A stretch of 64,000 bases of DNA from a virus: the IMG/VR virus record IMGVR_UViG_3300048927_000157, positions 1-64,000 of that record. The stretch is one strand, 5' to 3'. The notes beneath the pieces are model-generated. The model saw only the letters and a program-made list of their open reading frames with translations. It made no database searches and had not been told where the DNA came from. Below, in pieces: positions 18,676-53,460 of the stretch (within the stretch, counting starts at the first letter, position 1; each line of letters opens with the position of its first letter). The translations under genes and the position numbers were made by a program.

Positions 18676-18680
18676 CAATT

Positions 18681-20342: not shown

Positions 20343-20355
20343 CAAAATTAAAATT

Positions 20356-20940: not shown

Positions 20941-20956
20941 CATCAAAAATTTAAAA

Positions 20957-39916: not shown

Positions 39917-40460
39917 GACTGGTAATGTTTATGGTAAACTAACAGTAGTATCAAGAGCTGACAATGACAAAAATGGATTTGGAAAATGGATATGTAAATG
40001 TGATTGTGGAAATAAGTCTATAGTAGCAGGGATTAATCTGAGAAAAGAAAAAGGAACAAGGTCTTGTGGGTGCTTAAAAAATGAAATAATGTTTACTAAA
40101 AGGAGTGGGAATGCAGTTTTTGGAATCATCCTAAGAAACATTAAAAGTGATTGTAAAAAGAGAAATCTACCTTTTAACATAACCTTAGAGGATGTAAAAG
40201 AGATTACTGTTCAACCTTGTAGTTATTGTAAGAGAGAACCTTATGAATTAAAATGTAGGTATCAAAGACCAGATTCCACTGTAGAGAATGACTGTTTACT
40301 TTTGAATGGTATAGATAGAATCATACCATCAAAAGGTTATACTAAAGGAAATATTACTCCCTGTTGTAAGTACTGTAACAGAGCTAAAAGTGATTTGACT
40401 TTAGATGAATTTAAAAATTTAATCAAATTAATTTATAAAAACTATATTAATGAGACTTAG
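39891..40460 (+). CDS. HNH-type homing endonuclease-like protein
   Basis: CKCDCGN...CGC Cys cluster. C-terminal NGIDRIIPSKGYTKGNITPCCKYCNRAKSD. Confidence 0.6.
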   Translation: MKQRKLIDETGNVYGKLTVVSRADNDKNGFGKWICKCDCGNKSIVAGINLRKEKGTRSCGCLKNEIMFTKRSGNAVFGIILRNIKSDCKKRNLPFNITLEDVKEITVQPCSYCKREPYELKCRYQRPDSTVENDCLLLNGIDRIIPSKGYTKGNITPCCKYCNRAKSDLTLDEFKNLIKLIYKNYINET

Positions 40461-41736
40461 TGTTAGTGAAGATTCACTTAATTACCCTTGTTCAGTTGTA
40501 ACAATTGGACAAGTTTTCGATATAAAAAATGCCGATAACATCAAAAGAGTAGTTCTGTATGGAAACAACGTAATTGTCTCTAAAGACGTTAAACAGGGAG
40601 ACACAATGCTTTACTTTGTAGCAGGTACACAATTGTCAGAGGATCTTTGCTTCAATAACAACCTTTATGATGAGGTCCAGCTTAACAAAGATGTGACAGA
40701 TAAGAAAGGTTACATTTCTGCCAAAAGAAGACTTGTAAAAACTCTTAAACTAAAAGAAACTCTTTCTGATGGAATGTTACTTCCTATTGAAGCTCTAAAC
40801 TACTTAGAGGAGGGTAAACTTGATGCTAAAGGATTCTTGAAAATTGGGGATACATTCACTCACATTGGAGACACTATGATTTGTCAGAAATATGTTCCAC
40901 CAGTTAAGCAATCTGGACTACCAAAAGGTGAGAAGCAGCCTAAAGAAAATAGATTGAAAGATCTACTATTGGATAATCAATTCAGATTCCACTCAGACAC
41001 AGCTCATTTTGCCAGAAATCTGGATAAGTTTGGAGCAGGAACTCAAATTGTTGTGACTAGGAAGTATCATGGGTCTTCATTGATCCTAAGTCATGTGTTA
41101 GTGAAGAAAGAGCTTAACTGGTTTGAGAAATTGATTGACAAGTATATTACTCCACTTCCTAAAACTCAATGGGGGTACATTCACTCATCTGGTAAACCTA
41201 AATCAAGACTGCCTAAAGGGGTGGAAGCTGAGCAGGTTGGATGGACTTCTCACACTCCTAGTTTCTACTCTGCCAATATTTGGAAGAGAGCAATGGAAAT
41301 GCATAAACACAACCTTGAGAAAGGAATCACTATTTATGGTGAAATTGTGGGTCAGGGAGTTCAGGGTGAGGGTTTCACTTATGGTTTCGAGTATGAGATC
41401 TTTGTGTATAGAATCACTTATACCAACCCAGATGGACAGGTTTACGAGTTCTCATGGGAGGCAGTGAAGAGGTACTGTGATAAGTATGGAATCAAGTATG
41501 TTGAAGAGTACTTCTCAGGTAAAGTACATGAAATAGTAGGAAAACAAGGAACTACAGAAGATCTGTTGGAGAGATTAAAGGATGCTTATCTTGATAAATC
41601 CTACCCAGACTGTAAGGTTGATGAGGGAATCTGTATCAGAGTAGCTGAGACGGATGAGATCTTCAAACTAAAATCTCCTAAGTTTATTGATGGGGAATCT
41701 AAGGAATTAGAGCAAGGAATCTCCGATGGAGAATAA
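40450..41736 (+). CDS. RNA ligase (Rnl-family nucleotidyltransferase)
   Basis: Motif I TRKYHGSS (K-x-H-G, as in Rnl2 KIHGTN), motif IV-like DEGICIRV, motif V FKLKSPKF. Confidence 0.7.
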   Translation: MRLSVSEDSLNYPCSVVTIGQVFDIKNADNIKRVVLYGNNVIVSKDVKQGDTMLYFVAGTQLSEDLCFNNNLYDEVQLNKDVTDKKGYISAKRRLVKTLKLKETLSDGMLLPIEALNYLEEGKLDAKGFLKIGDTFTHIGDTMICQKYVPPVKQSGLPKGEKQPKENRLKDLLLDNQFRFHSDTAHFARNLDKFGAGTQIVVTRKYHGSSLILSHVLVKKELNWFEKLIDKYITPLPKTQWGYIHSSGKPKSRLPKGVEAEQVGWTSHTPSFYSANIWKRAMEMHKHNLEKGITIYGEIVGQGVQGEGFTYGFEYEIFVYRITYTNPDGQVYEFSWEAVKRYCDKYGIKYVEEYFSGKVHEIVGKQGTTEDLLERLKDAYLDKSYPDCKVDEGICIRVAETDEIFKLKSPKFIDGESKELEQGISDGE

Positions 41737-41771
41737 TTAACAAAACTTTAACATAAAAGACACCTGTAAAA

Positions 41772-41805
41772 TTTGCAGGTGTCAATTTTTTTACATATAT
41801 TTGCA
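41772..41805 (+). promoter_or_regulatory. phage consensus promoter
   Basis: TTTGCAGGTGTCAATTTTTTTACATATATTTGCA, with upstream AACAAAACTTTAAC. Confidence 0.65.
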
Positions 41806-41823
41806 TCATTAAATTAAAAAAAT

Positions 41824-42516
41824 ATGAAACCAACATCAAAACATTCACAATACGTTGTAATCTGTAAGAGTTCTTACGAAGTAAACACAGTTTTATCATT
41901 CCTGAAAGGAAAAGTAACACATTATGGTAATTGGGTGTATGTCTTCAACTCTGAGAAAAAAGCTGGAGCAACCAGTAAATTAGTCGGGTATCAAAAGAAG
42001 CTGCCAGTGTTAACCTTTGGAGAATGGCAAACATTACCAGATTCAGAACTTGGTACTTTTAAGTTTCCAACAGAAACTGCTCCTTTACAGGAGAAAAACT
42101 TAATGGTACAGCCAAGATTTAAGAAAGTATTTGAAACTCTGGTTGCTGCCGAATTCCCGTTCAAAATCAATCCTGATAGAATCTTCGGAGCCACTGAGCA
42201 GGTTGTTAGAACAATCAACAAATTAGGATTCTCAAGTATCTTCACTGAGATTAGAGCCCCAAGGCTGCCAAGACTACATTTATTCCCTAACATTGACGGG
42301 GTGGTAGAAAAGGCTGAGAACCTTACAGTTTTTAGATACGGAAAGAATCTTCTTAATAGGGGTTGGTTCATTGGCAACTCGGCAGGAGCACCACTGGCAA
42401 TCACTCTTCAAAATGGATTAGTTATCCAAGAAGGAGACATCACACGAATCAGAGAATATCTGAAAGAAGTGTACAACTACGAAACATTAGCATCAACTAA
42501 AATCAATAAAAATTAA
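41824..42516 (+). CDS. hypothetical protein
   Basis: 230-aa ORF. The antisense ORF is discounted. Confidence 0.65.
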   Translation: MKPTSKHSQYVVICKSSYEVNTVLSFLKGKVTHYGNWVYVFNSEKKAGATSKLVGYQKKLPVLTFGEWQTLPDSELGTFKFPTETAPLQEKNLMVQPRFKKVFETLVAAEFPFKINPDRIFGATEQVVRTINKLGFSSIFTEIRAPRLPRLHLFPNIDGVVEKAENLTVFRYGKNLLNRGWFIGNSAGAPLAITLQNGLVIQEGDITRIREYLKEVYNYETLASTKINKN

Positions 42517-42520
42517 TTTT

Positions 42521-42733
42521 ATGGCAATTTACAATCCAATCGAAACACCTGAACAAACAGAACAATGGATCAACTGGCTAGAAAACGTAGCTAAAGATCT
42601 TAACGGAATGGAGCCTAATGGTGAACCTTCCAGAGAAATTCTGAACACGGAGGAAGGAGACCTGCATGAGTTCAAAAACATGGTAGGTAATTTCCTAGCA
42701 ACGTTGAAAAAGCAAATCGTAATCATTCAATAA
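42521..42733 (+). CDS. hypothetical protein
   Basis: Co-directional ORF. Confidence 0.5.
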   Translation: MAIYNPIETPEQTEQWINWLENVAKDLNGMEPNGEPSREILNTEEGDLHEFKNMVGNFLATLKKQIVIIQ

Positions 42734-42750
42734 AACAAGCAACTAAATTT

Positions 42751-43545
42751 ATGAAAAACATATTCAAACTCCTTTTAGGATTAACACTATTTATTAGCAC
42801 AGTATCGTGCAGACAGAACAGACAGCCGTATCATGAGGTGGTTTACAATGCTCAGGGAGAGCAAATGGTTAAAGTCCAGGACTATGACCAGAATGGTAAT
42901 CTGATCGAGTATTACATTGCTTATGCAATGTTCAACCAATTGTATAACAATGGTGGCTACAGATCGGTGAATCATTACTATTATGACAACAGACCTGCTT
43001 TTGATAGAAGCTATGTAAATTATGACAGAGCCTATCAATATGATACTAATCCAAGGCAGACATACCAAGATCAGAATGTAGCTGTTACTGAGCCTCAGAA
43101 ACCAGCTTACAGACCATCTTCACCGAAAACCTCGAATGTAACATATACTGATAGTAAACCAACGAAAGTAACTTACAGACCAAGTAGTCCTACAACTTCA
43201 AGTTATACAACTACAAAACCTGTGACTTATAGACCTTCGTCTCCAACTACTACATCAAGTTATAGACCGAGCAGCCCGTCATCAACAACTTCTTCTTACA
43301 GGTCTTCTTCACCGAGTTCCAGTTACAAGAGCAGCTCTTCATACAGTAGTTCATCATACAGAAGTAGCTCACCAAGTTCTTCAAGTTCAAGTAGCTATAG
43401 AAGTAGTTCACCTTCTTCTTATTCATCTTCATCATCTTCTTCGTATAGGAGTTCTTCACCAAGTTCTTACTCTTCATCAAGTAGTTCTTACAGAAGTTCG
43501 TCTCCAAGCTCTAGTTCAAGCTACAGCTCATCTTCAAGAAGATAA
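42751..43545 (+). CDS. lipoprotein with a long Ser/Pro/Tyr/Arg tandem-repeat tail
   Basis: Lipobox MKNIFKLLLGLTLFISTVSC. C-terminal half consists of YRPSSP / YRSSSPSS(S)n repeats. Confidence 0.7.
   Translation: MKNIFKLLLGLTLFISTVSCRQNRQPYHEVVYNAQGEQMVKVQDYDQNGNLIEYYIAYAMFNQLYNNGGYRSVNHYYYDNRPAFDRSYVNYDRAYQYDTNPRQTYQDQNVAVTEPQKPAYRPSSPKTSNVTYTDSKPTKVTYRPSSPTTSSYTTTKPVTYRPSSPTTTSSYRPSSPSSTTSSYRSSSPSSSYKSSSSYSSSSYRSSSPSSSSSSSYRSSSPSSYSSSSSSSYRSSSPSSYSSSSSSYRSSSPSSSSSYSSSSRR
43108..43545 (+). repeat. coding low-complexity tandem repeats (YR[PS]SSP-Sn)
   Basis: At least 10 iterations of TAYAGR-(C/A)CN-AGY-TCN-CCN followed by Ser codons. Confidence 0.8.
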
Positions 43546-43555
43546 TTATATGGAT

Positions 43556-43641
43556 CAGTGTATAACTCAATGGTAGAGTCTTGCTGGGATGAGTAGAAAT
43601 ACTCGGAGTGAGGTTAGGGGGTTCGATTCCCCCTTACACTA
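43556..43641 (+). ncRNA. tRNA-like gene whose anticodon loop is replaced by a GAAA-capped extension
   Basis: Acceptor (C)AGTGTA/TACACT(A), D arm ACTC-AATGGTA-GAGT, T arm GGGGG-TTCGATT-CCCCC, stem TTGCT/AGTGA enclosing GGGAT-[GAGTA-GAAA-TACTC]-GG. No 7-nt anticodon loop. Confidence 0.4.
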
Positions 43642-43654
43642 CAAATTTTAGAGT

Positions 43655-43861
43655 ATGATTATAAAAATAACTAATTGTACAACAACTACAGGTGGTGGTA
43701 AAGGTACACCACTTAGATGGAGACAAAATCAGAATGTCACTATTGTAATTTCTGATAATAGTGATCCTTATAAATGGGCTAAACCTAACAGAATGTTTAT
43801 TATTCGAGGTAGACCATATTATACCACAAAAGAGTCAAAAAGTATTATAATAAAAAATTAA
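43655..43861 (+). CDS. hypothetical protein
   Basis: Co-directional ORF. Confidence 0.5.
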   Translation: MIIKITNCTTTTGGGKGTPLRWRQNQNVTIVISDNSDPYKWAKPNRMFIIRGRPYYTTKESKSIIIKN

Positions 43862-43864
43862 ATT

Positions 43865-44206
43865 ATGACACATACAATAACTTTAGACACTCCAATGAAT
43901 TTTTTGGAAGCCATGCAGTATCTTGCTGATGGTAAATGTGTGGGAATTAAACCAAAGGGAAACTCTCATTATTTAGTTCCATACAGACCTCATTTTTGGA
44001 ATGCTAAGGATAAAAGAATAGCTTTAGCTTGGTATAGGTCTTACAAAGATGGAACAGTTAGCAACACAATATCTGATGAGTCTTATTTAGGAGAGTGGTT
44101 TCCTGTAGTACTTGATACTAGAAGGTTACCAATAGAAATTAAACACAGCTTATTGCTGGAGAATATTACAGGGGTTTTAGATAATTTAACCTACGAAAAA
44201 AATTAA
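43865..44206 (+). CDS. hypothetical protein (possibly DUF2829-like)
   Basis: MNFLEAMQYLADGKCVGIKPKG... resembles the remembered DUF2829 N-terminus. Weak. Confidence 0.5.
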   Translation: MTHTITLDTPMNFLEAMQYLADGKCVGIKPKGNSHYLVPYRPHFWNAKDKRIALAWYRSYKDGTVSNTISDESYLGEWFPVVLDTRRLPIEIKHSLLLENITGVLDNLTYEKN

Positions 44207-44208
44207 AT

Positions 44209-44394
44209 ATGACAAAGTTAACACTATTTAGAATCACATTAATTGTCACAGTTGTGATGATGATGCTTGGAGGAGCCTTGATGACAGCTAAGACTGTAGG
44301 CTTGGGAATTATATTGGTGGTATTAGGAATTGTAGGATTTATCTGTTCTCCTTTTATCAGTCAATTAGGAAAAGATGACGATAATAAATCTTAA
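44209..44394 (+). CDS. small membrane protein
   Basis: Two hydrophobic helices. Confidence 0.5.
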   Translation: MTKLTLFRITLIVTVVMMMLGGALMTAKTVGLGIILVVLGIVGFICSPFISQLGKDDDNKS

Positions 44395-44398
44395 AATT

Positions 44399-44797
44399 AT
44401 GAAAAAATTACTTTTAATACTGATGATGACACTATCTTTTATTGGGTGTTCTTCATCAAATGACGAACAATTAGTTCAACCTAACAAACAGTACTTTCAC
44501 CCACCAACGTGGATTCAAGGTACTTGGGTTATTTCTGGAACTAACACTCAGTATTTCAAATTCACCTTGGATGACTTCATCCTGATATCACCATATACTA
44601 GCTATACTGAAGTGATGCAGAAAGCAGCAGCCACAGGACAAACAGCCAAAGTTGATGAGCAAATAAGTGAGACAAATTACACATTCTCAATGACAGCAGG
44701 AATATCATATGGGACTTATATCTTCACAAAGATCAGTCCAACAAAGATACAGAGATCTGGGAATGGTTCATCAATTGTTTACTTTGATAAATTATAA
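44399..44797 (+). CDS. lipoprotein
   Basis: MKKLLLILMMTLSFIGCSSS lipobox. Track start trimmed. Confidence 0.6.
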   Translation: MKKLLLILMMTLSFIGCSSSNDEQLVQPNKQYFHPPTWIQGTWVISGTNTQYFKFTLDDFILISPYTSYTEVMQKAAATGQTAKVDEQISETNYTFSMTAGISYGTYIFTKISPTKIQRSGNGSSIVYFDKL

Positions 44798-44803
44798 AAT
44801 TAT

Positions 44804-45169
44804 ATGAGCTTAATTTTCAATCCAGAAGTTAGAAAATGCTTTGCACCATGTGCAGAATCTCTCAGAGGAGAGTGGTGTCAATGCCAAATGCCACGACCTG
44901 TAGAAAATGTTGAGGTAAATAAAGTAAAAACCTTTGAAGAAGTTGCAGAAGCCTTTAAGCAGCAGATGATAAAAGAAAACAAAGACAATGCTGAGAAGGG
45001 AGATATTTTAACATTCACCAACGTAGATCAGGCTTTATTAGAGCTTGAGTATCACAAGTCAAAGTTATACTTTGCATTAAAAGCCCAGAAGCCTGAAAGG
45101 GTTAAGGAGTATCTAGCAGACTGTGCTAACTTCCTTCTTACTATTGGTAATGCCTGGGAATTATATTAA
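44804..45169 (+). CDS. hypothetical protein
   Basis: Co-directional ORF. Confidence 0.55.
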   Translation: MSLIFNPEVRKCFAPCAESLRGEWCQCQMPRPVENVEVNKVKTFEEVAEAFKQQMIKENKDNAEKGDILTFTNVDQALLELEYHKSKLYFALKAQKPERVKEYLADCANFLLTIGNAWELY

Positions 45170-45189
45170 TCAAAATCAAAATTAAAACT

Positions 45190-45585
45190 ATGTTAACACA
45201 CATTTTTTACCTTATAGGAGGGTTCTTAATTATTATGGAACTCAGTGATCTTTTCAACGTCAAAGCAGTAGTCAAAAAGACTGAGGAGTTGGAGAAGTGG
45301 GATATGGATAATCCTGATGTAGATTATGAAAACAAACCTAAGTTCTACATAGATTTCATCCAGTCAAGAACGGTATTCACTTGGACATTCTTACTGTGGG
45401 CTATTTTAGGCTTATTTACGAAGTATTATATGGATTTCATATTCTTCTTCGTCATGACTCTTTTGGTTTATCCTAAGGTCTCTAGTGCACTACATGGAAG
45501 ACCATTCAGATTAATATTCAGTGCTGTGAATTCACTTTTTGTCATTGGATTCATAATGTACGAAATCATAAAACATTATCATTAA
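45190..45585 (+). CDS. integral membrane protein
   Basis: Four predicted hydrophobic segments. Confidence 0.6.
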   Translation: MLTHIFYLIGGFLIIMELSDLFNVKAVVKKTEELEKWDMDNPDVDYENKPKFYIDFIQSRTVFTWTFLLWAILGLFTKYYMDFIFFFVMTLLVYPKVSSALHGRPFRLIFSAVNSLFVIGFIMYEIIKHYH

Positions 45586-46364
45586 TGAAAAATTACAAAT
45601 TATATAAAGTAGGAGGGTGTATCAGAGATGCACTATTGGGAGTCAGAAGTAAGGACATTGATTTTACTTTTGAATTTTCACAAGAGTTTGTGGATTCAAT
45701 CCATAGAAAATCTGATGTTACGGCTGAGTGGTTTTACCATTCAATGAACAACATTCTAAAACAAGATGGATTCGATATCAAGCTTGAAGTTCCAGAAGCC
45801 TTTACTACAAGAGCTTTATTTCCAAAGGATCACAAGTATGCTGGACTAGGAGCAGACTTCGTTCTGGCTAGAAAAGAGACTTACCCTGATCCTGAAACAA
45901 GAATGCCAAAGGTAGAAATTGGCACACTGTTTGATGATCTACAGAGAAGGGATTTTACAGTAAATGCTATTGCTGAAGATGAAGATGGTATTTTGATTGA
46001 CCCATTTGGAGGTCAGGCAGATTTGAAGCAAGGCATTTTGAGATGTCCCATTTCAGCCCAAACCTCTTTCAATGATGATCCTCTAAGAATGTTGAGAGCT
46101 CTTAGATTCTCTATCACAAAGAACTTTACAATGGATTCATCTATTGAGAGAGTGATTCTTAAAGATCAGGAGATGTGGATGAAGTTTTTAAATGTAGTTT
46201 CTGAAGAAAGAATTAGAGATGAAGTTTATAAGATGTTCAAGCATGACACGATAAAGACACTTAGATTACTAAGTGATCTGGAAAAATTGACAGATATTTC
46301 TGTATTAAAATACATATTCGGTGAAAACATGTGGTTGGAGCCGACAACTAAAAAAAGAAAGTAA
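45585..46364 (+). CDS. tRNA nucleotidyltransferase (CCA-adding enzyme / poly(A) polymerase family), short form
   Basis: YKVGGCIRDALLG...KDIDF, RRDFTVNAIA, DPLRMLRALRF. Confidence 0.85.
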   Translation: MKNYKLYKVGGCIRDALLGVRSKDIDFTFEFSQEFVDSIHRKSDVTAEWFYHSMNNILKQDGFDIKLEVPEAFTTRALFPKDHKYAGLGADFVLARKETYPDPETRMPKVEIGTLFDDLQRRDFTVNAIAEDEDGILIDPFGGQADLKQGILRCPISAQTSFNDDPLRMLRALRFSITKNFTMDSSIERVILKDQEMWMKFLNVVSEERIRDEVYKMFKHDTIKTLRLLSDLEKLTDISVLKYIFGENMWLEPTTKKRK

Positions 46365-46576: not shown

Positions 46577-46592
46577 CCTAAATAGAAAATAA

Positions 46593-48177: not shown

Positions 48178-48187
48178 ACTAAACATT

Positions 48188-48370
48188 ATGATTTACATTT
48201 TAATTGCACTCGTATGGGTTATGTATGGAGCTATTGCTGCTATACAAGATAAAACTACTGAAGATAGTACTCAAGATGTGATAATATTCAAGTGGTGTGT
48301 AATGATTGTTCTAGCCCCTGCAATTTTTGTAGGCAAATGTTTGTATGGAGCATTTAAAGAATATCATTAA
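48188..48370 (+). CDS. small membrane protein
   Basis: Two hydrophobic helices. Confidence 0.5.
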   Translation: MIYILIALVWVMYGAIAAIQDKTTEDSTQDVIIFKWCVMIVLAPAIFVGKCLYGAFKEYH

Positions 48371-48390
48371 TTTTAACAAAATTTTAACAG

Positions 48391-48419
48391 TGAGATTCTT
48401 GTGAGTCTCATTTTTTTTA
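48391..48419 (+). terminator. rho-independent terminator
   Basis: TGAGA...TCTCA hairpin followed by T8. A -7 element TTATATTTGCA follows at 48420-48431. Confidence 0.65.
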
Positions 48420-48449
48420 TTTATATTTGCACTATCAATAATCGAAACT

Positions 48450-48740
48450 ATGGAAAGACCAAATTTAAAAATAGCAAAGTTTACCAATCCAAACCAAACT
48501 TTCATCACTGAAAGGTATGTGGTAGAGAATGAAGAAGATCTCAAACTCTTACTGGCAGAATTCCCTCAGTTAGATAACAATGCAATGGGAGTAGCTGGCA
48601 ATTGGCAGCAAGCCTTAGATGAAGGTAGAATTCTATTAATCACAGATGAATCTTGGATTGGGTATCCAACTTATCAATTCGAGTCTCCAGTAGGATCAAC
48701 TCATCCAAGTTGTTTAATTAGAGTAACACTTGATACATAA
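48450..48740 (+). CDS. hypothetical protein
   Basis: Co-directional ORF. Confidence 0.55.
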   Translation: MERPNLKIAKFTNPNQTFITERYVVENEEDLKLLLAEFPQLDNNAMGVAGNWQQALDEGRILLITDESWIGYPTYQFESPVGSTHPSCLIRVTLDT

Positions 48741-48991
48741 TGAATCCAAAGGTTAAGAAACTGTACAAAGACACTCTGAAAGATTTGTTATCTCAATGTA
48801 CAGAAGATGAGCAAATGGTTTTTAAGAGAATGTATTCTCACAAAAACTTAGAGTTGGATATCAATACAGTTGTTGACAACATGGATGAGAGTAAGTATGA
48901 TTGGGCTATCACCCAGTGTGAGCAAACTATAGCAAGCAAAAAGAAAGTATTAAGTAAATCTTTAACCAATGACACCAATACAAAAACTTAA
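48740..48991 (+). CDS. hypothetical protein
   Basis: Co-directional ORF. Confidence 0.55.
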   Translation: MNPKVKKLYKDTLKDLLSQCTEDEQMVFKRMYSHKNLELDINTVVDNMDESKYDWAITQCEQTIASKKKVLSKSLTNDTNTKT

Positions 48992-49292
48992 AGAAGAGAA
49001 TATGATTCTTAGAAAAGGTTTGAACGATACCTTAGAAAAATTGAATCAAGTTCATGATGAGTCTGTCAGAGCTATTGAAAAATTGAATCACAATGAAAGA
49101 GAGTATGATAAGTTCAATAAAATAAATAATATGTATGATGTTGATCTTAGCTATATGATGAGAACTGGAAGATTTGCTTGGGGAGAAAGAGGAAAACAAA
49201 TAGCAGGATTTTATGTAAGACCTGTAATCATGAACACATTAGACAAATTAAAAAAATTAAATGAAAGTACTAGTAATTCATCCACAGGATAG
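48969..49292 (+). CDS. hypothetical protein
   Basis: Co-directional ORF. Alternative start at 49002. Confidence 0.55.
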   Translation: MTPIQKLKEENMILRKGLNDTLEKLNQVHDESVRAIEKLNHNEREYDKFNKINNMYDVDLSYMMRTGRFAWGERGKQIAGFYVRPVIMNTLDKLKKLNESTSNSSTG

Positions 49293-49782
49293 CACAACAG
49301 ATTTCTTATGTCCTACTTACACAAAGGACTTCACAGTAATTAGAACTGAAATTGGAGATTCCTTGTTAAAAAGTTTAATTAGGCAACATGATGTCATCAT
49401 AATGATGGGTCACGGGGATACCAGAGGACTATATGGATTTGATAGACACATTGTAGATGCTTCCTTTGTTGATGAGTTAAGAAAGAAGATCTGTATTTGT
49501 ATCTGGTGCTATGCTGCTGACTTTGTTGAACATTATGATCTTAAATCTCCATTTTCAACTGGAATGTTTATTTCAGAATCAGAAGAAGCCGATGCTTTAG
49601 GAGAAGAGTATGATGAGGGAGACATAGAAGAGTCAAACTTTTGGTTTACAGAAGCTTTGAAAGGTTTTTTCTCAGACTTAGAAAAATACGATTACAAGAA
49701 ACTAAACCGATGCTACAACGTAGGATTAAACAGTATCACAGAATATAACAGAAAACAATTTATACAAACATGGCACACTTAA
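49261..49782 (+). CDS. hypothetical protein with His-Gly ... Cys pattern
   Basis: VIIMMGHGDTRGLY ... ICICIWCYAADF. Very tentatively caspase-fold-like. Confidence 0.55.
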   Translation: MKVLVIHPQDSTTDFLCPTYTKDFTVIRTEIGDSLLKSLIRQHDVIIMMGHGDTRGLYGFDRHIVDASFVDELRKKICICIWCYAADFVEHYDLKSPFSTGMFISESEEADALGEEYDEGDIEESNFWFTEALKGFFSDLEKYDYKKLNRCYNVGLNSITEYNRKQFIQTWHT

Positions 49783-50912
49783 AAGCACAGGATTTCGAGA
49801 CAGAGAAGGAAAACTTCAGAAAGATGATTCCTTGGATTGAAGAGTCAAGAAACGTTAAAATCCTTCTGGCATTCGTAAGAGGAAGCCATATGTATGGAAC
49901 CAACACGGAGCAGTCAGATGTAGACATTACTTTTGTTTATCAGCAGCCAACCAATGAGATCCTGAAAAACAATTACAAGAAAGATATGAGTATTGGGGGA
50001 GATGATGTAGTTGGGTTTGAGATCCAGAATTTCATGGAACTTCTGGTTAAGAACAACCCAAACATGATTGAGGCTCTTGATATTCCAGATGAGTGTATAA
50101 TCTACAAAAACCCAGTAATGCATGTATTTGATGATTCCAAGCCTTGGATCACAACACTTACTGAAAAAACCATTTTGGGTTATGCAGACTCTCAGATCAA
50201 GAAAGCAACAGGACTTAATAAGAAGATGAATAATCCTCAGCCAAAAGAGAGAAAATCAATTTTGGATTTCTGTTATGTTATCTCAGGTCATAATTCAATT
50301 CCACTCCTAAGATGGGCAGACCAGTTGAATATCAATTTGGATACTTGTGGATTAGTGGATCTTCCAGTAGGAAAAGGACTTCATGGTCTTTATGTAGACA
50401 ATGAAAATAAGTATCAGCTTAGAGGTCTGATTAAAGATGAGGATTCAGTTAACCTGAGACTTTCTTCTATCCCTAAAGAGCTGGCAACAAATTTTGAAGC
50501 TGTCACCATGTATTACAACTTAGATGGTTTCCAAGTTCATTGTAAGGATCATAAAGAGTACTGGGAATGGGAAGCTAAAAGAAATGAAGAAAGATTCAAT
50601 GCTAACCAAAAGGCAGGGCAAGGAGTTGATCTTAAAAATATGTCTCACCTATTCAGACTTCTTGATATGGCTGATAACATTTCCACAGGAAAAGGTCTTA
50701 AAGTGAAATCAGATAACGTGGAGTTCTTGAGAGCTATTAGAGCAGGAGAGTACAACTATGAAGATCTGATGAAACAGGCTGAGGAAAGGTTTCATACCAT
50801 CAAAGGAAATTACATCACAGTTGATCTTCCAGAAGAAGTGGATATCAGCAGGATGAAAGATCTTCTATTACAGTTTAGATTAAATACAGTAAACAGTGGA
50901 ACAAAGTTTTAA
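49770..50912 (+). CDS. RlaP-like nucleotidyltransferase (Pol-beta superfamily, RNA-repair associated)
   Basis: LLAFVRGSHMYGTNTEQSDVDITFVY fits the GS..YG......SD.D motif of the ligase-associated nucleotidyltransferase family. Confidence 0.6.
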   Translation: MAHLKAQDFETEKENFRKMIPWIEESRNVKILLAFVRGSHMYGTNTEQSDVDITFVYQQPTNEILKNNYKKDMSIGGDDVVGFEIQNFMELLVKNNPNMIEALDIPDECIIYKNPVMHVFDDSKPWITTLTEKTILGYADSQIKKATGLNKKMNNPQPKERKSILDFCYVISGHNSIPLLRWADQLNINLDTCGLVDLPVGKGLHGLYVDNENKYQLRGLIKDEDSVNLRLSSIPKELATNFEAVTMYYNLDGFQVHCKDHKEYWEWEAKRNEERFNANQKAGQGVDLKNMSHLFRLLDMADNISTGKGLKVKSDNVEFLRAIRAGEYNYEDLMKQAEERFHTIKGNYITVDLPEEVDISRMKDLLLQFRLNTVNSGTKF

Positions 50913-51186
50913 AATAGAAACAGTTTGGGGAGATAAGTTAATTCCCACCGTTAGAACAACAAACGGTAGGACAGATTATTCTCCTAAAGATTTAGAAGGT
51001 AAACTGGTCTATAACAAAAGTCAAGATGTTACAGGGATCTTCAGAGCAGCAGGAAGTCATACTTCCAGAGGTGGTCATGGAGAAGGAGACTGGACAACAA
51101 ATGACTATGTTATAGTAACAGGGAAATATGAACTCAAGTGGGTTCGAGATGGAAATATCTTAATCCTTAAAAACGGTAAAATTTAA
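50896..51186 (+). CDS. hypothetical protein
   Basis: Co-directional ORF. Confidence 0.55.
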   Translation: MEQSFKIETVWGDKLIPTVRTTNGRTDYSPKDLEGKLVYNKSQDVTGIFRAAGSHTSRGGHGEGDWTTNDYVIVTGKYELKWVRDGNILILKNGKI

Positions 51187-51190
51187 TGCA

Positions 51191-51967
51191 ATGAGTGCAA
51201 AATTAAAATCAGAATTACAAAAAGTAAAACAAAAAGAAAATGCTCCTATTGAGAGTGTTATGGACCAAGTAAAAACTCTACTTATCGGATATGATAATGA
51301 GTCTGAGAAGATTCTAAAGCAAGCTGGATTGTCAAGTAATCCTGTTGAGCCTAGGCTCACAGAAGACTACAAGAGAACCAAAGCAGTTGAAGAAAGATAC
51401 AAAGTAGAGTCTTATACTGGATCTCAGATTAAAGAGCTTTGTAATATGTATAACTTGAGAATGCTGCCAACTTCTTATTACAAGGGAACTGTTCCTGCTG
51501 ATACGGCTGACTACATCAAGGATTTCTGTGATAAAAACAACCTAGTGATTACCAACAGAGATATGTTTATCCTGGCTCCAGTAGAAATGTTTGAAACTAA
51601 ACAATTTTATGTGGATAGAGACCCCATTCTGTTTTATAGAACAGACAAGAGAAACTCTTACAATGATAAAGCTCAACTAGATGATGTTTTCTCTCAGGTT
51701 CACAATTGGGGAAATGATTTTCAAGAATCAAGAAAATTATGGTTCTTAGGGGATAGAGTTAACAGGGATTTTATGTCTAATAGAGCAAGATTCATACTAT
51801 TTATGGCTATGATAACTTTATTTTTAGTATCTATAGCTATTGGGTTTGGTCCTTTTATAGGAATTGCTGCATTTAGTTTATTAACAGCTACCCTGTTTTT
51901 TTCATTCACTAATATTTCTAACCTTAAAAATGACGAGCCGTGGAATACAGACGTAATATTCTCCTAA
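51191..51967 (+). CDS. hypothetical protein with C-terminal TM segments
   Basis: FILFMAMITLFLVSIAIGFGPFIGIAAFSLLTATLFF. Confidence 0.6.
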   Translation: MSAKLKSELQKVKQKENAPIESVMDQVKTLLIGYDNESEKILKQAGLSSNPVEPRLTEDYKRTKAVEERYKVESYTGSQIKELCNMYNLRMLPTSYYKGTVPADTADYIKDFCDKNNLVITNRDMFILAPVEMFETKQFYVDRDPILFYRTDKRNSYNDKAQLDDVFSQVHNWGNDFQESRKLWFLGDRVNRDFMSNRARFILFMAMITLFLVSIAIGFGPFIGIAAFSLLTATLFFSFTNISNLKNDEPWNTDVIFS

Positions 51968-51969
51968 AA

Positions 51970-52236
51970 ATGATTCTTCCTGTCCTGATTTTAATACCTA
52001 TTTTAATCTGGTTTAGACTAACTCCATCAAGTTATGAACAAATGGTTACTGTCAGAGAAGTTGTACCTCAGGAGAAGCTAATCAAAAACAACAAAGAAAT
52101 TGACATCAACAAAGAGTATTATACTGAGGAAATGATGCTGGTTAAAAAAGAAAGAACTTGGATTCCTTTCTATACCAGAACAGTAGATACAATTCAAACA
52201 ACAGGTAAAAAGGGCTGGAGCAGACCAAGAGAATGA
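51970..52236 (+). CDS. small membrane-anchored protein
   Basis: Track ORF trimmed to MILPVLILIPILIWF... Confidence 0.5.
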   Translation: MILPVLILIPILIWFRLTPSSYEQMVTVREVVPQEKLIKNNKEIDINKEYYTEEMMLVKKERTWIPFYTRTVDTIQTTGKKGWSRPRE

Positions 52237-52439
52237 TAAAAATAATCACATTTTGTATAGGAGTGGATGTCCTAGGATTTCCACTCTTTCATCAGCACAG
52301 GTTAAAGTTTAGAACTGAAAGTAAATATATCATAGGTTATGATAAAATTTCAGGAACTGGTGACAGTATAGGTGCTTTTTATAATACTCAAACAGGGGAA
52401 AGAGGAATAATTCAAAGAAAACATTTAGATAAAGAATAA
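52233..52439 (+). CDS. hypothetical protein
   Basis: ATGA overlap. Confidence 0.5.
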   Translation: MIKIITFCIGVDVLGFPLFHQHRLKFRTESKYIIGYDKISGTGDSIGAFYNTQTGERGIIQRKHLDKE

Positions 52440-52465
52440 ATTTAACAAAGTTTTAACTAAAAAGA

Positions 52466-52499
52466 TTTGCATATGTCAATTATTTTTCCTACCTTTGCA
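52466..52499 (+). promoter_or_regulatory. phage consensus promoter
   Basis: TTTGCATATGTCAATTATTTTTCCTACCTTTGCA, with upstream TTTAACAAAGTTTTAAC. Confidence 0.7.
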
Positions 52500-52533
52500 A
52501 TCTAATTAATCAACTAACTAAAACATCAAGCCT

Positions 52534-53460
52534 ATGAGTTTAATCACCGTTTTAATCGGTATATCTGGAGCAGGAAAAACAACATTTTCAACTCCTTTAC
52601 TAAAAGATAAAAATACTATCAGAGTAAACAGGGATGATGCCAGAACCATGTTATTTGGAGTAAGTCAATCAGATCAGACTTATTACAACAGAAAAGACAT
52701 TAGAGCATGTGAGGATCTGGTTTCAGAAACCATTGAAGACACAGTTTATAATGCCTTGAATAAAGGAAAAAACATTGTTTTCGATAACACTCATCTTCAA
52801 AAGAAGTATATTGATGAGATTTTATTCAAGTATAATCACTTGGCTGACATTGAGTTAGTATTTTGTGATGTTCCTTTGAAGGAAGCTCAAGATAGAGTTG
52901 TTAAAAGAAACTCATTGGCTTCAGTCCCTGTATACATTGAGAAACACTACAATGACTACATCAAGCTTAAAAAAGCAATGCATGGTCAGCAGTTATTCTA
53001 CCCTCAAACAGCTCCCCAAGTTAAATTCAATTCTTCTCTTCCAGACACTTACATAGTGGATATTGATGGAACGGTTGCTTTGAAAGGAGATAGAGATATC
53101 TTTGATGACTCTAAGCTTCACTTGGATACTGAAATTAAAGAGGTTGGGCACATTATTAGAGCACTCCATAAAGATGGTTTCAAGATAGTGTTTGTATCGG
53201 GAAGACAAGATTCCTGCAAAGATACTACCACTCAATGGTTAAAGGATAAAAACCTCTGGATGACAGATTCTGAAATCTTCATGAGGAAAGCCAAAGACCA
53301 AAGAAATGACAGTATTGTCAAAGAAGAAATAGTATTAAGAGACTTGCTACCAAGATTCAACGTTGTTGGAGTATTGGATGACAGAATAGGGGTGACTAGA
53401 AACTTCCACAAGTTGGGAATGTTCGTCCTGAATGTAAATCAAGGTTTCGTAAAATTTTAA
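52534..53460 (+). CDS. polynucleotide 5'-kinase / 3'-phosphatase (Pnkp, T4 Pnk-like)
   Basis: N-terminal P-loop LIGISGAGKTTF. C-terminal HAD phosphatase motifs IVDIDGTVA, VSGR and LDDR. Confidence 0.85.
   Translation: MSLITVLIGISGAGKTTFSTPLLKDKNTIRVNRDDARTMLFGVSQSDQTYYNRKDIRACEDLVSETIEDTVYNALNKGKNIVFDNTHLQKKYIDEILFKYNHLADIELVFCDVPLKEAQDRVVKRNSLASVPVYIEKHYNDYIKLKKAMHGQQLFYPQTAPQVKFNSSLPDTYIVDIDGTVALKGDRDIFDDSKLHLDTEIKEVGHIIRALHKDGFKIVFVSGRQDSCKDTTTQWLKDKNLWMTDSEIFMRKAKDQRNDSIVKEEIVLRDLLPRFNVVGVLDDRIGVTRNFHKLGMFVLNVNQGFVKF

What the first reader, a model, noticed from the sequence alone, without database searches (positions are those of the whole stretch)
40450..53460. Dispersed but complete RNA-repair and tRNA-maturation toolkit
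The window encodes an Rnl-family RNA ligase (40450), a CCA-adding enzyme (45585), an RlaP-like Pol-beta nucleotidyltransferase of the kind found with RNA ligases (49770), and a T4-type Pnkp kinase/phosphatase (52534). Elsewhere in the window are a PTH2-like protein, YqeY and a SLOG protein. Pnkp plus Rnl is the classical T4 system for resealing tRNAs cut in the anticodon loop. The same chemistry (healing 2',3'-cyclic-P and 5'-OH ends, then sealing) is what would be needed to join the termini of the permuted tRNA halves. Neither permuted 3' half encodes CCA, so CCA addition would also be needed.
Basis: inference. Interest (0 to 1): 0.65.

Follow-up and report, generated by a model that had tools for sequence, protein, structure and literature searches.

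The report
Phage RNA-repair gene kit, already-known kind
A large tRNA-rich phage carries four genuine RNA end-repair enzymes of a kind already described in big phages, and the "split tRNA halves" they were proposed to join are better explained as tRNA-shaped small RNAs that partner a neighbouring Ro60-like protein.

Summary
ORFs at 40450, 45585, 49770 and 52534 are an RNA ligase, a class-II tRNA nucleotidyltransferase, an RlaP nucleotidyltransferase and a T4-type kinase/phosphatase (Pnkp). All have intact catalytic motifs and the same gene order in two related phages.

The ligase is not T4 Rnl1. By profile and predicted fold it is an Rnl5 (DraRnl/NgrRnl) nick-sealing ligase.

This kit (tRNAs, ligase, Pnkp, RlaP, CCA enzyme, plus a TROVE protein and a SLOG protein) has been described for large phages (PMC7824862), so it is a new member of a known kind.

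The proposed link to "permuted tRNA halves" is not supported:
- The halves (17908-18200) are two of six tiled units, each closed by a covarying terminal helix followed by ACAGCAA.
- The array lies directly downstream of a 558-aa protein whose only full-length structural match is Ro60.
- The topology matches YrlA-type Y RNAs, which are known tRNA mimics.
- In relatives the acceptor stem is often closed by a 3-6 nt loop.
- Two phages carry this gene and array without any homologue of the kit.
- The tRNA set is complete without these units.

Side lead: this Ro-like protein plus ACAGCAA RNA module is widespread, unannotated, absent from Rfam, and resembles Dictyostelium Class I RNAs.

The parts
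40450..41736 (+). Rnl5-type (DraRnl/NgrRnl-like) ATP-dependent RNA ligase: N-terminal OB domain plus NTase domain, motif I Lys205
   Evidence: AF2 model pLDDT 84.3. The top 13 Foldseek hits are NgrRnl over the full length, E about 1e-13 to 1e-14; T4 Rnl2 matches through the NTase domain only (1e-8); T4 Rnl1 1e-3.
45585..46364 (+). Short (259 aa) class-II tRNA nucleotidyltransferase, head and neck only; presumed CCA-adding or CCA-repair enzyme
   Evidence: PF01743 1.6e-19; phrog_24229 2e-57; NCBIfam CCA models score far below their cutoffs. Motifs GGCIRD, DID, RRDFTVNA, DDPLR.
49770..50912 (+). RlaP (RNA-ligase-associated Pol-beta) nucleotidyltransferase
   Evidence: PF10127 56.6 bits against a cutoff of 23; phrog_388 3e-47. 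GSHMYG...DVD.
52534..53460 (+). T4-type bifunctional polynucleotide 5'-kinase / 3'-phosphatase (Pnkp)
   Evidence: PF25109 5e-35 plus PF13671 2e-18; phrog_505 4e-67; PDB 4XRP 6e-29 and 1LTQ 7e-20. Walker A, RDDAR and DIDGT motifs.
43557..43641 (+). Non-decoding tRNA-like gene inside the kit region: normal acceptor, D and T arms, anticodon arm replaced by a 29-nt insert containing a GAAA-tetraloop hairpin
   Evidence: Rfam tRNA 28.7 bits against a cutoff of 29. Conserved at 84% in the closest relative.
39891..40460 (+). HNH / endonuclease VII-like homing endonuclease abutting the ligase gene (context, probably not part of the kit)
   Evidence: phrog_3322, phrog_374 and phrog_1035, 1e-16 to 5e-18.
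15963..17639 (+). Divergent Ro60-like RNA-binding protein (DUF7788/DUF2828 family): helical-repeat N-terminal part plus vWA domain
   Evidence: phrog_850 'RNA-binding protein' 1e-38; PF25043. AF2 pLDDT 79.6. The only full-length Foldseek hit is Xenopus Ro60 1YVR, probability 1.00, E 3e-4, 597 columns, TM 0.39-0.42.
17908..18053 (+). Y-RNA-like unit U1 (the first 'permuted tRNA'): terminal helix AAAACTCA/TGAGTTTT, ACAGCAA motif, anticodon-like hairpin (CAU), T-arm, acceptor 3' strand, 26-nt loop, acceptor 5' strand (C1:A72 mismatch), D-arm
18058..18200 (+). Y-RNA-like unit U2 (the second 'permuted tRNA'): terminal helix AAGTTTCAT/ATGAAACTT, ACAGCAA motif, hairpin GC-AUUGAAA-GC (anticodon-like UGA), class-I tRNA-like body
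   Evidence: Rfam YrlA RF02553 36.2 bits, E 5e-6, below the cutoff of 69.
18206..18597 (+). Y-RNA-like units U3-U6 (18206-18329, 18334-18398, 18403-18465, 18470-18597): same terminal helix plus ACAGCAA, with cargo being a poor tRNA-like element, a short hairpin, a short hairpin, and a T-arm element
   Evidence: A covariance model trained only on relatives finds U4 at 46.3 bits (E 3e-9) and U5 at 40.7 bits (E 8e-8).
14778..15592 (+). YqeY-like protein (14778-15200) and YAcAr SLOG protein (15200-15592), immediately upstream of the Ro60-like gene
   Evidence: PF09424 5e-27; PF10686 1.7e-13.
8611..20941 (+). tRNA region: 23 ARAGORN calls plus one Rfam-only call (8815-8889, Phe GAA read by eye), including a suppressor tRNA(CUA) at 18681-18755. 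By my reading, about 22 of the 24 lack encoded CCA

Best explanation
The four genes form a conventional phage RNA heal-and-seal and tRNA 3'-end maintenance kit. It protects the translation apparatus, host tRNAs and the phage's own 24 tRNAs, against host ribonuclease defences.

Inferred mechanism: Pnkp converts 2',3'-cyclic-phosphate or 3'-phosphate and 5'-OH ends to 3'-OH and 5'-phosphate. RlaP adds back one or two nucleotides lost from the 3' end. The Rnl5-type ligase seals the break where the ends are held in a duplex. The short class-II nucleotidyltransferase builds or rebuilds CCA, which nearly all phage tRNAs need in any case.

Shown here: the gene identities, the intact catalytic motifs, the ligase family and the conserved synteny. 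Inferred: the substrates and the order of reactions.

The so-called permuted tRNA halves are not substrates waiting to be joined. They are tRNA-mimicking modules of a Y-RNA-like array that partners the adjacent Ro60-like protein. At most they are trimmed at the acceptor end by RNase P or RNase Z and CCA-tailed, as shown for M. smegmatis YrlA.
For: - Family assignments and motifs.
- Rnl5 fold.
- Synteny in two relatives.
- Published descriptions: the same kit in large phages (PMC7824862); RlaP adds 1-2 NMP to damaged RNA 3' ends and is needed to restore aminoacylation of over-damaged tRNA (PMC12776372).
- Pnkp homologues occur in 2,086 phage records, often next to an RNA ligase. Ligase homologues occur in 379 phage records.
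- Y-RNA reading of the 'halves': six tiled, helix-enclosed units; the terminal helix is 93% paired across 52 relatives, with all 8 pairs changing on both sides and 0 of 500 shuffles reaching the observed score; Ro60 is the only full-length fold hit of the neighbouring protein; YrlA model alignment; the gene-array association recurs in 23 of 36 related loci and in two cultured phages.
Against: - No expression or biochemical data are available.
- The physiological substrates of Rnl5 ligases are unknown (PMC4408790, PMC5397189), and Rnl5 is poor on single-stranded ends. Resealing of anticodon-loop cuts, the T4 paradigm, is therefore not the obvious job of this ligase.
- The four genes are not an operon-like cluster; they are spread over 13 kb among ORFans.
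- The NTase lacks the body and tail domains that bind tRNA in cellular CCA enzymes.
- The Ro60 fold match has a low TM-score (0.39-0.42).
- The RNAs lack the known bacterial Ro-binding motif GNCGAAN0-1G.
Confidence: 0.68

Rival explanations
1. First reader's model. U1 and U2 are true permuted tRNA genes. The transcript is cut at both sides of the 29|30 junction, Pnkp heals the ends, the ligase seals them (possibly via a circular intermediate), RNase P and RNase Z open the acceptor end, and the NTase adds CCA, giving functional tRNAs.
For: - Joined in silico, U1 and U2 give canonical cloverleaves that ARAGORN calls tRNA-Met(CAU) and tRNA(UGA).
- The anticodon-like loops across the family keep U33 and R37.
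- In the window the acceptor strands are full 7-bp stems separated by 22-26 nt that begin with the same CAAA trailer as genuine tRNAs.
- The junction lies inside a duplex, which is the preferred context of Rnl5 ligases (PMC4408790).
- At least 11 of 36 contigs with the Ro-like gene also carry an Rnl5-type ligase.
Against: - No endonuclease, BHB motif or known ribozyme was found at the junctions (inspection).
- The same topology occurs with acceptor stems closed by 3-6 nt loops in 7 of the 20 parsed units.
- EFDG1 and Lbo-JY46 have the array but none of the four kit genes.
- Units with no tRNA-like cargo share the same helix and motif.
- The apparently corresponding unit (same terminal helix) differs in its anticodon arm and 'anticodon' between close relatives: CAU in the window against UCA in L001.
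- U2 has a class-I body, which is incompatible with Ser identity.
- The tRNA set is complete without these units.
Confidence: 0.06
2. The kit and the Ro60-like/Y-like RNP form one integrated RNA-surveillance and repair platform, analogous to the bacterial rsr-yrlBA-rtcBA operon. The tRNA-shaped RNAs act as scaffolds, sensors or decoys for anticodon nucleases, and the ligase and Pnkp repair what is cut, possibly including the decoys themselves. No new tRNAs are produced.
For: - Ro60/Y RNA and RNA ligases are linked in bacteria (PMC4201824; PMC7790460 was listed and only its abstract was read).
- TROVE proteins are listed among phage RNA-repair components (PMC7824862).
- The ligase and the Ro-like gene share at least 11 of 36 contigs.
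- EFDG1 pairs the Ro-like module with a gene annotated 'tRNA splicing ligase', which I take to be RtcB-like.
- The variable anticodon-like loops with conserved U33 and R37 fit a decoy or mimic role.
Against: - The two modules are 22 kb apart here.
- Lbo-JY46 has no homologue of any of the four kit proteins, and I saw no annotated RNA ligase in its record, which is mostly 'hypothetical protein'.
- Many array-rich contigs are absent from the listed ligase loci.
- There is no direct evidence for any interaction.
Confidence: 0.18
3. The enzymes act in separate, non-tRNA pathways. For example, the Rnl5 ligase and Pnkp could seal RNA-primed nicks or RNA patches in phage DNA replication or repair, and the NTase could act as a poly(A) or A-adding enzyme. 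Their co-occurrence would then be incidental to large genome size.
For: - Rnl5 enzymes seal nicks whose 3'-OH strand is RNA, including RNA:DNA contexts, and DraRnl loss sensitises D. radiodurans to radiation (PMC5397189; PMC4408790).
- The genes are dispersed among ORFans.
- The NTase scores comparably against PcnB models.
Against: - RlaP distribution tracks RNA ligases in phages, and its biochemistry is RNA-specific (PMC7824862; PMC12776372).
- The gene order of all four is conserved while the intervening ORFs turn over.
- The genome context is heavily tRNA-centred: 24 tRNAs, YqeY, a PTH2-like protein and the Ro-like gene.
Confidence: 0.08

Closest known systems
Phage T4 Pnkp + Rnl1 tRNA repair (counter-defence to the PrrC anticodon nuclease)
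   Same: A bifunctional kinase/phosphatase with the same two-domain architecture and motifs (1LTQ 7e-20), paired with an ATP-dependent RNA ligase. T4 also has an RlaP (NrdC.11; PMC12776372).
   Different: The ligase here is Rnl5-type (N-terminal OB domain, no C-terminal tRNA-specificity domain). T4 Rnl1 is only a weak NTase-domain match. The genes are dispersed.
RNA-repair complement of jumbo and other large phages (Iyer, Anantharaman, Krishnan, Burroughs, Aravind 2021, PMC7824862)
   Same: The same parts list: many tRNAs, ATP-dependent RNA ligase, polynucleotide kinase/phosphoesterase, RlaP, CCA-adding enzyme, a ROT/TROVE protein with a tRNA-like partner, and YAcAr SLOG domains.
   Different: That survey says most phage ligases belong to Rnl1 or Rnl2. 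This one is Rnl5-type. The phage here is about 160 kb (longest contig) and is uncultured.
Rnl5 family nick-sealing RNA ligases (DraRnl, NgrRnl; PMC4408790, PMC5397189)
   Same: Signature N-terminal domain plus NTase domain with no C-terminal appendage. Full-length fold match to NgrRnl, and TIGR02306-family homologues.
   Different: About 85 extra residues lie between the OB and NTase domains (114-198, low pLDDT at 152-166). Activity has not been tested.
Bacterial Pnkp1-Rnl-Hen1 repair system (PDB 4XRP/4XRU, Capnocytophaga; details from my own knowledge)
   Same: Pnkp1 is the closest solved sequence relative of the window's Pnkp (6e-29).
   Different: No Hen1 methyltransferase was detected among the ORFs scanned in the region.
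Ro60 (Rsr) with YrlA/YrlB Y RNAs, and the rsr-yrlBA-rtcBA operon (PMC4201824; PMC7790460)
   Same: Small RNAs on the same strand within 1 kb of a Ro60-like gene. The 5' and 3' ends pair in a terminal stem. A tRNA-like module has the order T-arm, acceptor, D-arm. [quoted passage not shown]
   Different: The protein is not a Pfam TROVE match (DUF7788/DUF2828 only). The conserved RNA motif is ACAGCAA, not GNCGAAN0-1G. The units sit in tandem arrays of up to about 10. Many units include a complete anticodon-arm mimic. All are below Rfam's YrlA cutoff.
Circularly permuted tRNA genes of Cyanidioschyzon merolae and other algae (from my own knowledge)
   Same: The 3' half lies upstream of the 5' half, with a short spacer between the acceptor strands.
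   Different: Those rely on a BHB motif, the splicing endonuclease and a circular intermediate. None of these is evident here, and the phage units are embedded in a protein-associated RNA family.
Dictyostelid Class I RNAs (Rfam RF01414; PMC7919456)
   Same: About 60 nt long, 5' A-R-G start, short covarying terminal stem, unstructured conserved motif ending ACAGCAA right after the 5' strand, and a ...CUG 3' end. U4 scores 27.9 bits (E 0.008).
   Different: Below the Rfam cutoff of 41.5. A different kingdom. No Pol III/DUSE promoter context. Homology is untested.

Membership tests
T4-type Pnkp | N-terminal P-loop polynucleotide kinase domain with Walker A and the catalytic Asp/Arg | tested here: met
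   AAA_33 2e-18; GISGAGKT and RDDAR aligned to 4XRP and 1LTQ.
T4-type Pnkp | C-terminal HAD-type 3'-phosphatase domain with DxDGT | tested here: met
   PF25109 121 bits against a cutoff of 27.6; DIDGT.
T4-type Pnkp | 5'-kinase and 2',3'-cyclic / 3'-phosphatase activity on RNA ends | not testable with these tools
   Needs an enzyme assay.
Rnl1 (T4 RNA ligase 1) | NTase domain followed by a C-terminal helical domain that confers tRNA anticodon-loop specificity | tested here: not met
   No C-terminal domain; the protein has an N-terminal OB domain instead. The Foldseek match to 2C5U is E 1e-3 over 224 columns only. No Rnl1 profile hit.
Rnl5 (DraRnl/NgrRnl) | Signature N-terminal domain plus C-terminal NTase domain, with no C-terminal appendage | tested here: met
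   PF21189 at residues 16-113 (24.3 bits, below the cutoff of 27 here but above it in the homologues) plus PF09414 at 199-408. Profile hit to NgrRnl 2e-6. Full-length Foldseek match at 1e-13 to 1e-14.
Rnl5 (DraRnl/NgrRnl) | Covalent nucleotidyltransferase motifs I, III, IV and V | tested here: met
   K205-YHG, YGEIVG, EGICIR, KLK. K205, G208, E298, E392, G393 and K406 are invariant in 35 homologues, and K408 is nearly invariant.
Rnl5 (DraRnl/NgrRnl) | Seals 3'-OH/5'-PO4 nicks in duplexes whose 3'-OH strand is RNA | not testable with these tools
   Needs an enzyme assay.
Class-II CCA-adding enzyme | Head-domain motifs A (GGxxRD...DxD), B (RRD) and D (EDxxR) | tested here: met
   GGCIRD, DID, RRDFTVNA, and DDPLR (E replaced by D). 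PF01743 70.9 bits.
Class-II CCA-adding enzyme | Body and tail domains that bind tRNA, and a full-length match to curated CCA equivalogs | tested here: not met
   Only 259 aa. NCBIfam CCA models score 116 bits or less against cutoffs of 290-606, and PcnB scores similarly. It is a member of a short phage-specific NTase family (phrog_24229).
RlaP (PF10127) | Pfam score above the gathering threshold and the Pol-beta GS...DxD active site | tested here: met
   56.6 bits against a cutoff of 23; GSHMYG and DVD.
RlaP (PF10127) | Gene neighbourhood with an RNA ligase | tested here: inconclusive
   Same strand and 8 kb downstream of the ligase, not adjacent. The relative order is conserved in two relatives.
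Permuted tRNA gene (algal type) | 3' half upstream of its own 5' half, re-joining to a canonical cloverleaf | tested here: met
   (ARAGORN on the re-joined U1 and U2).
Permuted tRNA gene (algal type) | BHB motif at the junction, a splicing endonuclease, and a circular intermediate | tested here: not met
   No BHB could be drawn from the flanks (inspection). No endonuclease or ribozyme family was found. The circular intermediate is not testable here.
YrlA-type Y RNA | Encoded within about 4 kb of a Ro60 orthologue and on the same strand | tested here: met
   The array starts 268 nt after the stop codon of the Ro60-like gene. The association recurs in 23 of 36 loci.
YrlA-type Y RNA | 5' and 3' ends pair in a terminal stem; the tRNA-like module has the order T-arm, acceptor stem-loop, D-arm | tested here: met
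YrlA-type Y RNA | Ro-binding motif GNCGAAN0-1G near the 5' end, and a score above Rfam's gathering threshold | tested here: not met
   The motif is ACAGCAA instead. The best YrlA score is 36.2 bits against a cutoff of 69, and no unit in 7 related loci passes.
Ro60 / TROVE protein | Helical-repeat ring plus a C-terminal vWA domain | tested here: inconclusive
   The only full-length Foldseek hit is Ro60 1YVR (probability 1.00, E 3e-4), but the TM-score is 0.39-0.42. There is no TROVE Pfam hit and no PDB sequence hit.
Dictyostelid Class I RNA | Short terminal stem plus the 11-nt CCUUACAGCAA motif, and a score above Rfam's gathering threshold | tested here: not met
   The architecture matches, but the scores are 27.9 and 21.3 bits against a cutoff of 41.5.

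The most novel reading that the evidence does not exclude
The kit and the Ro60-like/Y-like array work together to manufacture tRNAs. Tandem tRNA-shaped units U1 and U2 would be excised at the conserved UUAA|GC ... ACG|UA junction. Their ends, held as a nick in the anticodon-stem duplex, would be healed by Pnkp and sealed by the nick-specific Rnl5 ligase. The acceptor would then be opened and CCA-tailed. This would give the first circularly permuted, ligase-dependent tRNAs known in a bacterial virus (an initiator-like tRNA(CAU) and a class-I tRNA(UGA)).
Probability: 0.06. Interest if true: 0.85.

Novelty: new member of a known kind. Interest (0 to 1): 0.3.

Why it matters
As a repair kit it is ordinary. 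It adds one more uncultured large phage to a described pattern, and it corrects the ligase assignment to Rnl5. Rnl5 physiological substrates remain an open question, and a phage that pairs Rnl5 with Pnkp, RlaP and a tRNA NTase is a tractable place to look for them.

The more valuable outcome is the explanation of the "permuted tRNAs". They belong to a widespread, unannotated family of helix-plus-ACAGCAA small RNAs arrayed next to a DUF2828/DUF7788 Ro60-like protein. That protein family has more than 2,100 members and occurs in 535 phage records. If the RNA-protein pairing is confirmed, it would assign a function to a large domain-of-unknown-function family, extend Y RNA biology to many well-studied phages (Felixounavirus, Enterococcus Schiekvirus), and offer a lead on the unexplained Dictyostelium Class I RNAs.

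Tried and rejected
- Megablast of the kit region against GenBank phages gave no match, so identification relied on proteins.
- Known ribozymes, group I introns or BHB-type processing signals at the U1 and U2 junctions: Rfam at gathering and at E<=10 found none, and I could not draw a BHB by hand.
- Permuted (two-piece) tmRNA: only 16-17 bit hits against cutoffs of 47-84. Rejected.
- Reading the units as offset intron-containing tRNAs (5' half of U1 with 3' half of U2): rejected because the acceptor strands are complementary only within a unit.
- Exhaustive circular-permutation scan with ARAGORN on U3-U6 and on seven other orphan T-arm regions: no convincing extra permuted tRNAs. The U6 'tRNA-Pro' call is structurally poor.
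- My first reading of the U2 anticodon as GAA (Phe) was wrong by one position. It is UGA.
- Pfam and PHROGs scans of 10 ORFs lying between and next to the kit genes: apart from the homing endonuclease and one function-unknown PHROG, nothing. No Hen1, RtcB, RtcA or endoribonuclease was seen.
- The hunt for PTH2 among 20 small ORFs failed. It was found only by reading through an in-frame TAG.
- Single-protein locus scans for the ligase and Pnkp reached only two relatives. A profile scan was needed, and its listing is capped at 80, so co-occurrence figures are lower bounds.
- Whether Dictyostelium encodes a DUF2828 protein could not be tested with the tools available.

Full report
**1. What the window is**

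All long ORFs from about 3.7 kb onward lie on the + strand and GC is about 35%. ARAGORN finds 23 tRNAs between 8.6 and 20.9 kb and Rfam adds one more at 8815-8889. This is a large tRNA-rich phage. The proteins occur on contigs of up to about 160 kb. The two closest relatives are IMG/VR contigs of 157 and 159 kb. Megablast against GenBank phages finds nothing. Promoter-like TTTG ... TAnnTTTG elements (read by eye) and a Capnocytophaga Pnkp1 as the closest solved relative hint at a Bacteroidota host. That is inference only.

**2. The observation**

The four assignments survive profile searches.
- 40450-41736 is an RNA ligase: PF09414 above threshold, a sub-threshold N-terminal PHA02142 OB domain, and phrog_968 at 2e-65.
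- 45585-46364 is a class-II nucleotidyltransferase: PF01743, and phrog_24229 'tRNA nucleotidyltransferase'.
- 49770-50912 is RlaP: PF10127, 56.6 bits against a cutoff of 23.
- 52534-53460 is a bifunctional Pnkp: PF25109 plus AAA_33, with T4 Pnk 1LTQ at 7e-20 and Pnkp1 4XRP at 6e-29.

Catalytic residues are present in all four. In both close relatives the four genes keep the same order and strand at 57-94% identity, while the ORFans between them turn over. YqeY and a YAcAr SLOG protein are confirmed. The PTH2-like protein is weak and interrupted by an in-frame TAG.

**3. Which ligase**

The ligase is not Rnl1.
- NCBIfam's best model is TIGR02306 (DRB0094, that is DraRnl).
- Homologues carry PF21189 plus PF09414, and JGI names them 'RNA ligase (TIGR02306 family)'.
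- A profile of 35 homologues hits only Naegleria NgrRnl convincingly in the PDB (2e-6).
- An AlphaFold model (pLDDT 84.3) matches NgrRnl over its full length for the top 13 Foldseek hits (E about 1e-13 to 1e-14). T4 Rnl2 matches through the NTase domain only (1e-8), and T4 Rnl1 reaches 1e-3.

Rnl5 enzymes seal nicks in duplexes whose 3'-OH strand is RNA. They are feeble on single strands, have known phage homologues, and have no known physiological substrate. Rnl1 and Rnl4 are the stem-loop break specialists (PMC4408790; PMC5397189).

**4. Is the kit unusual?**

No.
- Iyer et al. 2021 (PMC7824862) describe the same complement in large phages: many tRNAs, ATP-dependent RNA ligases, polynucleotide kinase/phosphoesterases, RlaP tracking the ligases, a CCA-adding enzyme, a ROT/TROVE protein with a tRNA-like partner, and YAcAr SLOG domains.
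- RlaP has since been shown to add one or two nucleotides to damaged RNA 3' ends and to be needed to restore aminoacylation of over-damaged tRNA (PMC12776372).
- Homologues of this Pnkp occur in 2,086 GenBank phage records, often next to an RNA ligase. Homologues of the ligase occur in 379.

**5. The 'permuted tRNA halves'**

They do exist as a topology. At 17937-17979 and 18086-18129 there are 3' halves: part of the anticodon arm, variable loop, T-arm, acceptor 3' strand and discriminator. After 22-26 nt, each is followed by its own 5' half (acceptor 5' strand and D-arm, 18005-18032 and 18151-18179). Joined in silico, they are called as tRNA-Met(CAU), with a C1:A72 mismatch, and as a class-I tRNA with anticodon UGA.

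They are not isolated, however. ACAGCAA occurs six times between 17917 and 18485. Each occurrence is enclosed by a perfect 7-9 bp helix of different sequence. The six units tile exactly (17908-18053, 18058-18200, 18206-18329, 18334-18398, 18403-18465, 18470-18597), with 4-5 nt GAnA linkers between them. About 15% of random positions give a helix of 7 bp or more. U4 and U5 carry only a small hairpin. U3 carries a poor normal-order tRNA-like element. U6 carries a T-arm element.

**6. What the array belongs to**

The array begins 268 nt after the stop codon of a 558-aa ORF (15963-17639).
- That ORF matches phrog_850 'RNA-binding protein' and DUF7788.
- It has no sequence match in the PDB.
- Its model (pLDDT 79.6) has one full-length Foldseek hit, Xenopus Ro60 (1YVR; probability 1.00, E 3e-4, 597 columns, TM 0.39-0.42). 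Every other hit covers the vWA domain only.

Bacterial Ro60 partners are Y RNAs. YrlA-type Y RNAs are tRNA mimics in which the 5' and 3' ends form the protein-binding stem and the body runs T-arm, acceptor stem-loop, D-arm. M. smegmatis YrlA has a 7-bp acceptor stem and is cut by RNase P and CCA-tailed in vivo (PMC4201824). Rfam's YrlA model aligns to U2 over exactly that topology (36.2 bits, E 5e-6, below the cutoff of 69).

**7. Comparative support**

- Homologues of the 558-aa protein were found on 36 IMG/VR contigs at 40-93% identity.
- On the gene's strand, ACAGCAA is about 8 times denser than chance within 3 kb of the gene. 70-79% of occurrences are helix-enclosed. 23 of 36 loci have at least two enclosed units near the gene.
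- In an alignment of 52 short units from relatives, the terminal helix is 93% paired. All 8 pairs change on both sides, and 0 of 500 shuffles reach the observed score. The slid controls give 29-45% pairing. The units were selected for complementarity, so the tiling and the gene association are the independent evidence.
- A covariance model trained without window sequence finds U4 (46.3 bits, E 3e-9) and U5 (40.7 bits, E 8e-8). All other window hits lie within 15.9-18.6 kb. There are none in the kit region, nor in the kit regions of the relatives.
- The same unannotated arrays flank the homologous gene in two cultured phages: Leptolyngbya phage Lbo-JY46 (five units, PP438436.1 6923-7274) and Enterococcus phage EFDG1 (three units upstream of gp143).

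**8. Does the array need the kit?**

My parser classed 20 of 141 distinct units as having the permuted topology; two or three of these are doubtful.
- The segment between the acceptor strands is 3-6 nt in 7 of them, including both EFDG1 units. It is 14-26 nt in 12 and 73 nt in one.
- Many share a conserved junction, UUAA|GC-N7-GC-CGU ... ACG|UA(A)AAAC.
- Their 7-nt loops always keep U33 and R37, but the 'anticodon' varies (UCA, UGA, UCU, UGU, AUG, CAU). It differs even between the apparently corresponding units of close relatives, which share the same terminal helix.

This is what a mimic looks like, not a decoding tRNA under identity constraint.

EFDG1 and Lbo-JY46 have the gene and array but no tblastn-detectable homologue of the ligase, NTase, RlaP or Pnkp. 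EFDG1 does carry a gene annotated 'tRNA splicing ligase'. At least 11 of 36 Ro-like contigs also carry an Rnl5-type ligase. Several large array-rich contigs are not among the 80 listed ligase loci. The two modules are frequent companions in tRNA-rich phages, but they are not obligate partners.

The tRNA complement is complete without U1 and U2. Phe(GAA) is the Rfam-only tRNA at 8815-8889 and an Asp-like element lies at 8529-8605 (both read by eye). By my reading, about 22 of 24 tRNAs lack encoded CCA, and most are followed by the same CAA(A) trailer that begins the U1 and U2 inter-strand segment. So lacking CCA is general, not special.

**9. Mechanism and verdict**

*Most likely (0.68).* This is a standard heal, fill, seal and re-tail kit that maintains tRNAs and other RNAs against host nucleases. 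U1 and U2 are modules of a Y-RNA-like array bound by the Ro60-like protein. They are possibly opened at the acceptor end and CCA-tailed, as M. smegmatis YrlA is.

*Integrated Ro/Y plus repair platform (about 0.18).* This is plausible and is not exclusive of the first explanation.

Against it, there is no cleavage machinery or signal, and the family-wide features argue the other way.

*Unrelated pathways (about 0.08).* This cannot be excluded.

The finding is real but ordinary: a new member of a known kind.

**10. By-product**

The by-product is more interesting than the finding. DUF2828/DUF7788 Ro-like proteins form a family of more than 2,100 proteins and occur in 535 phage records. They appear to have a dedicated, undescribed RNA partner family defined by a terminal helix plus ACAGCAA. 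That family is absent from Rfam at curated thresholds. Its architecture closely parallels the Dictyostelid Class I RNAs, which have been reported only from Dictyostelia (PMC7919456).

Noticed in passing
window 15963-18597; also L001-L007, L017, L019-L022, L027-L033; L041 (PP438436.1) 6923-7274; L042 (NC_029009.1) locus 4389-4900: A conserved, unannotated module: a DUF7788/DUF2828 protein whose only full-length fold match is Ro60, flanked by tandem small-RNA units. Each unit has a 5' A-R-R start, a 7-9 bp covarying terminal helix, ACAGCAA, a variable cargo and a GAnA linker. No unit reaches any Rfam curated threshold. The known bacterial Ro-binding motif GNCGAAN0-1G is absent. This looks like a new Y-RNA-like family, and the protein occurs in 535 GenBank phage records.
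   Followed up: partly
window 18334-18398 and 18403-18465 (U4, U5): The short units resemble Dictyostelium Class I RNAs (Rfam RF01414, 27.9 and 21.3 bits against a cutoff of 41.5). Shared features are a length of about 60 nt, an A-R-G start, a short covarying stem, a motif ending ACAGCAA right after the 5' strand, and a ...CUG end. Class I RNAs were reported as restricted to Dictyostelia with unknown function, and DUF2828 proteins also occur in eukaryotes. Whether Dictyostelium has a DUF2828 protein was not tested.
   Followed up: partly
window 18775-19134, with tRNA(CUA) at 18681-18755: The PTH2-like ORF starts 20 nt after an amber-suppressor tRNA and has an in-frame TAG at codon 10 (18802-18804). 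TAG ends only 5 of 60 sampled genes (TAA ends 49). Two TAG stops are in frame with the next ORF (27770-28378 with 28385-28558; 30764-31657 with 31682-32056), which suggests suppressor-dependent read-through rather than wholesale recoding.
   Followed up: partly
window 43557-43641: A tRNA-like gene (Rfam tRNA 28.7 bits, cutoff 29) with normal acceptor, D and T arms but a 29-nt insert containing a GAGUA-GAAA-UACUC hairpin in place of a normal anticodon arm. It is conserved (84%) in the closest relative and lies between the ligase and NTase genes.
   Followed up: partly
window 8529-8605, 8890-8965, 9190-9300, 10367-10483, 32925-32995: Further orphan T-arm or tRNA-like fragments outside the called tRNAs. 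They include an Asp-like element (CUGUCAC loop, irregular anticodon stem) and a tRNA-like structure following a terminator-like hairpin at 32.9 kb. No permuted tRNA could be assembled from any of them.
   Followed up: partly
window 18248-18321 (inside U3): ARAGORN's 'tRNA-Leu(AAG)' is a weak call (Rfam 32.8 bits, several mispaired acceptor and T-stem positions, 9-nt loop). It sits inside a helix-enclosed ACAGCAA unit, so it is more likely a tRNA-like cargo than a decoding tRNA.
   Followed up: partly
window 10983-11495, 11580-11936, 20323-20865, 39891-40460: Several homing-endonuclease-like genes (HNH, PD-(D/E)XK, EndoVII-like) are interspersed in the tRNA region and abut the ligase gene.
   Followed up: no
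window 23870-25006: A stretch of about 1.1 kb without ORFs, with the lowest GC in the window (0.305 for 24-26 kb) and short A/T-rich tandem repeats. It may be a regulatory or origin region.
   Followed up: no
L031 16824-17111 and 17310-17551; L007 13028-13088: A relative carries two group I introns near its array (Rfam 92 and 51 bits). Another relative has a Y-like unit whose cargo matches tRNA model positions 6-65 (52.6 bits), that is, a normal-order tRNA body lacking acceptor ends.
   Followed up: no
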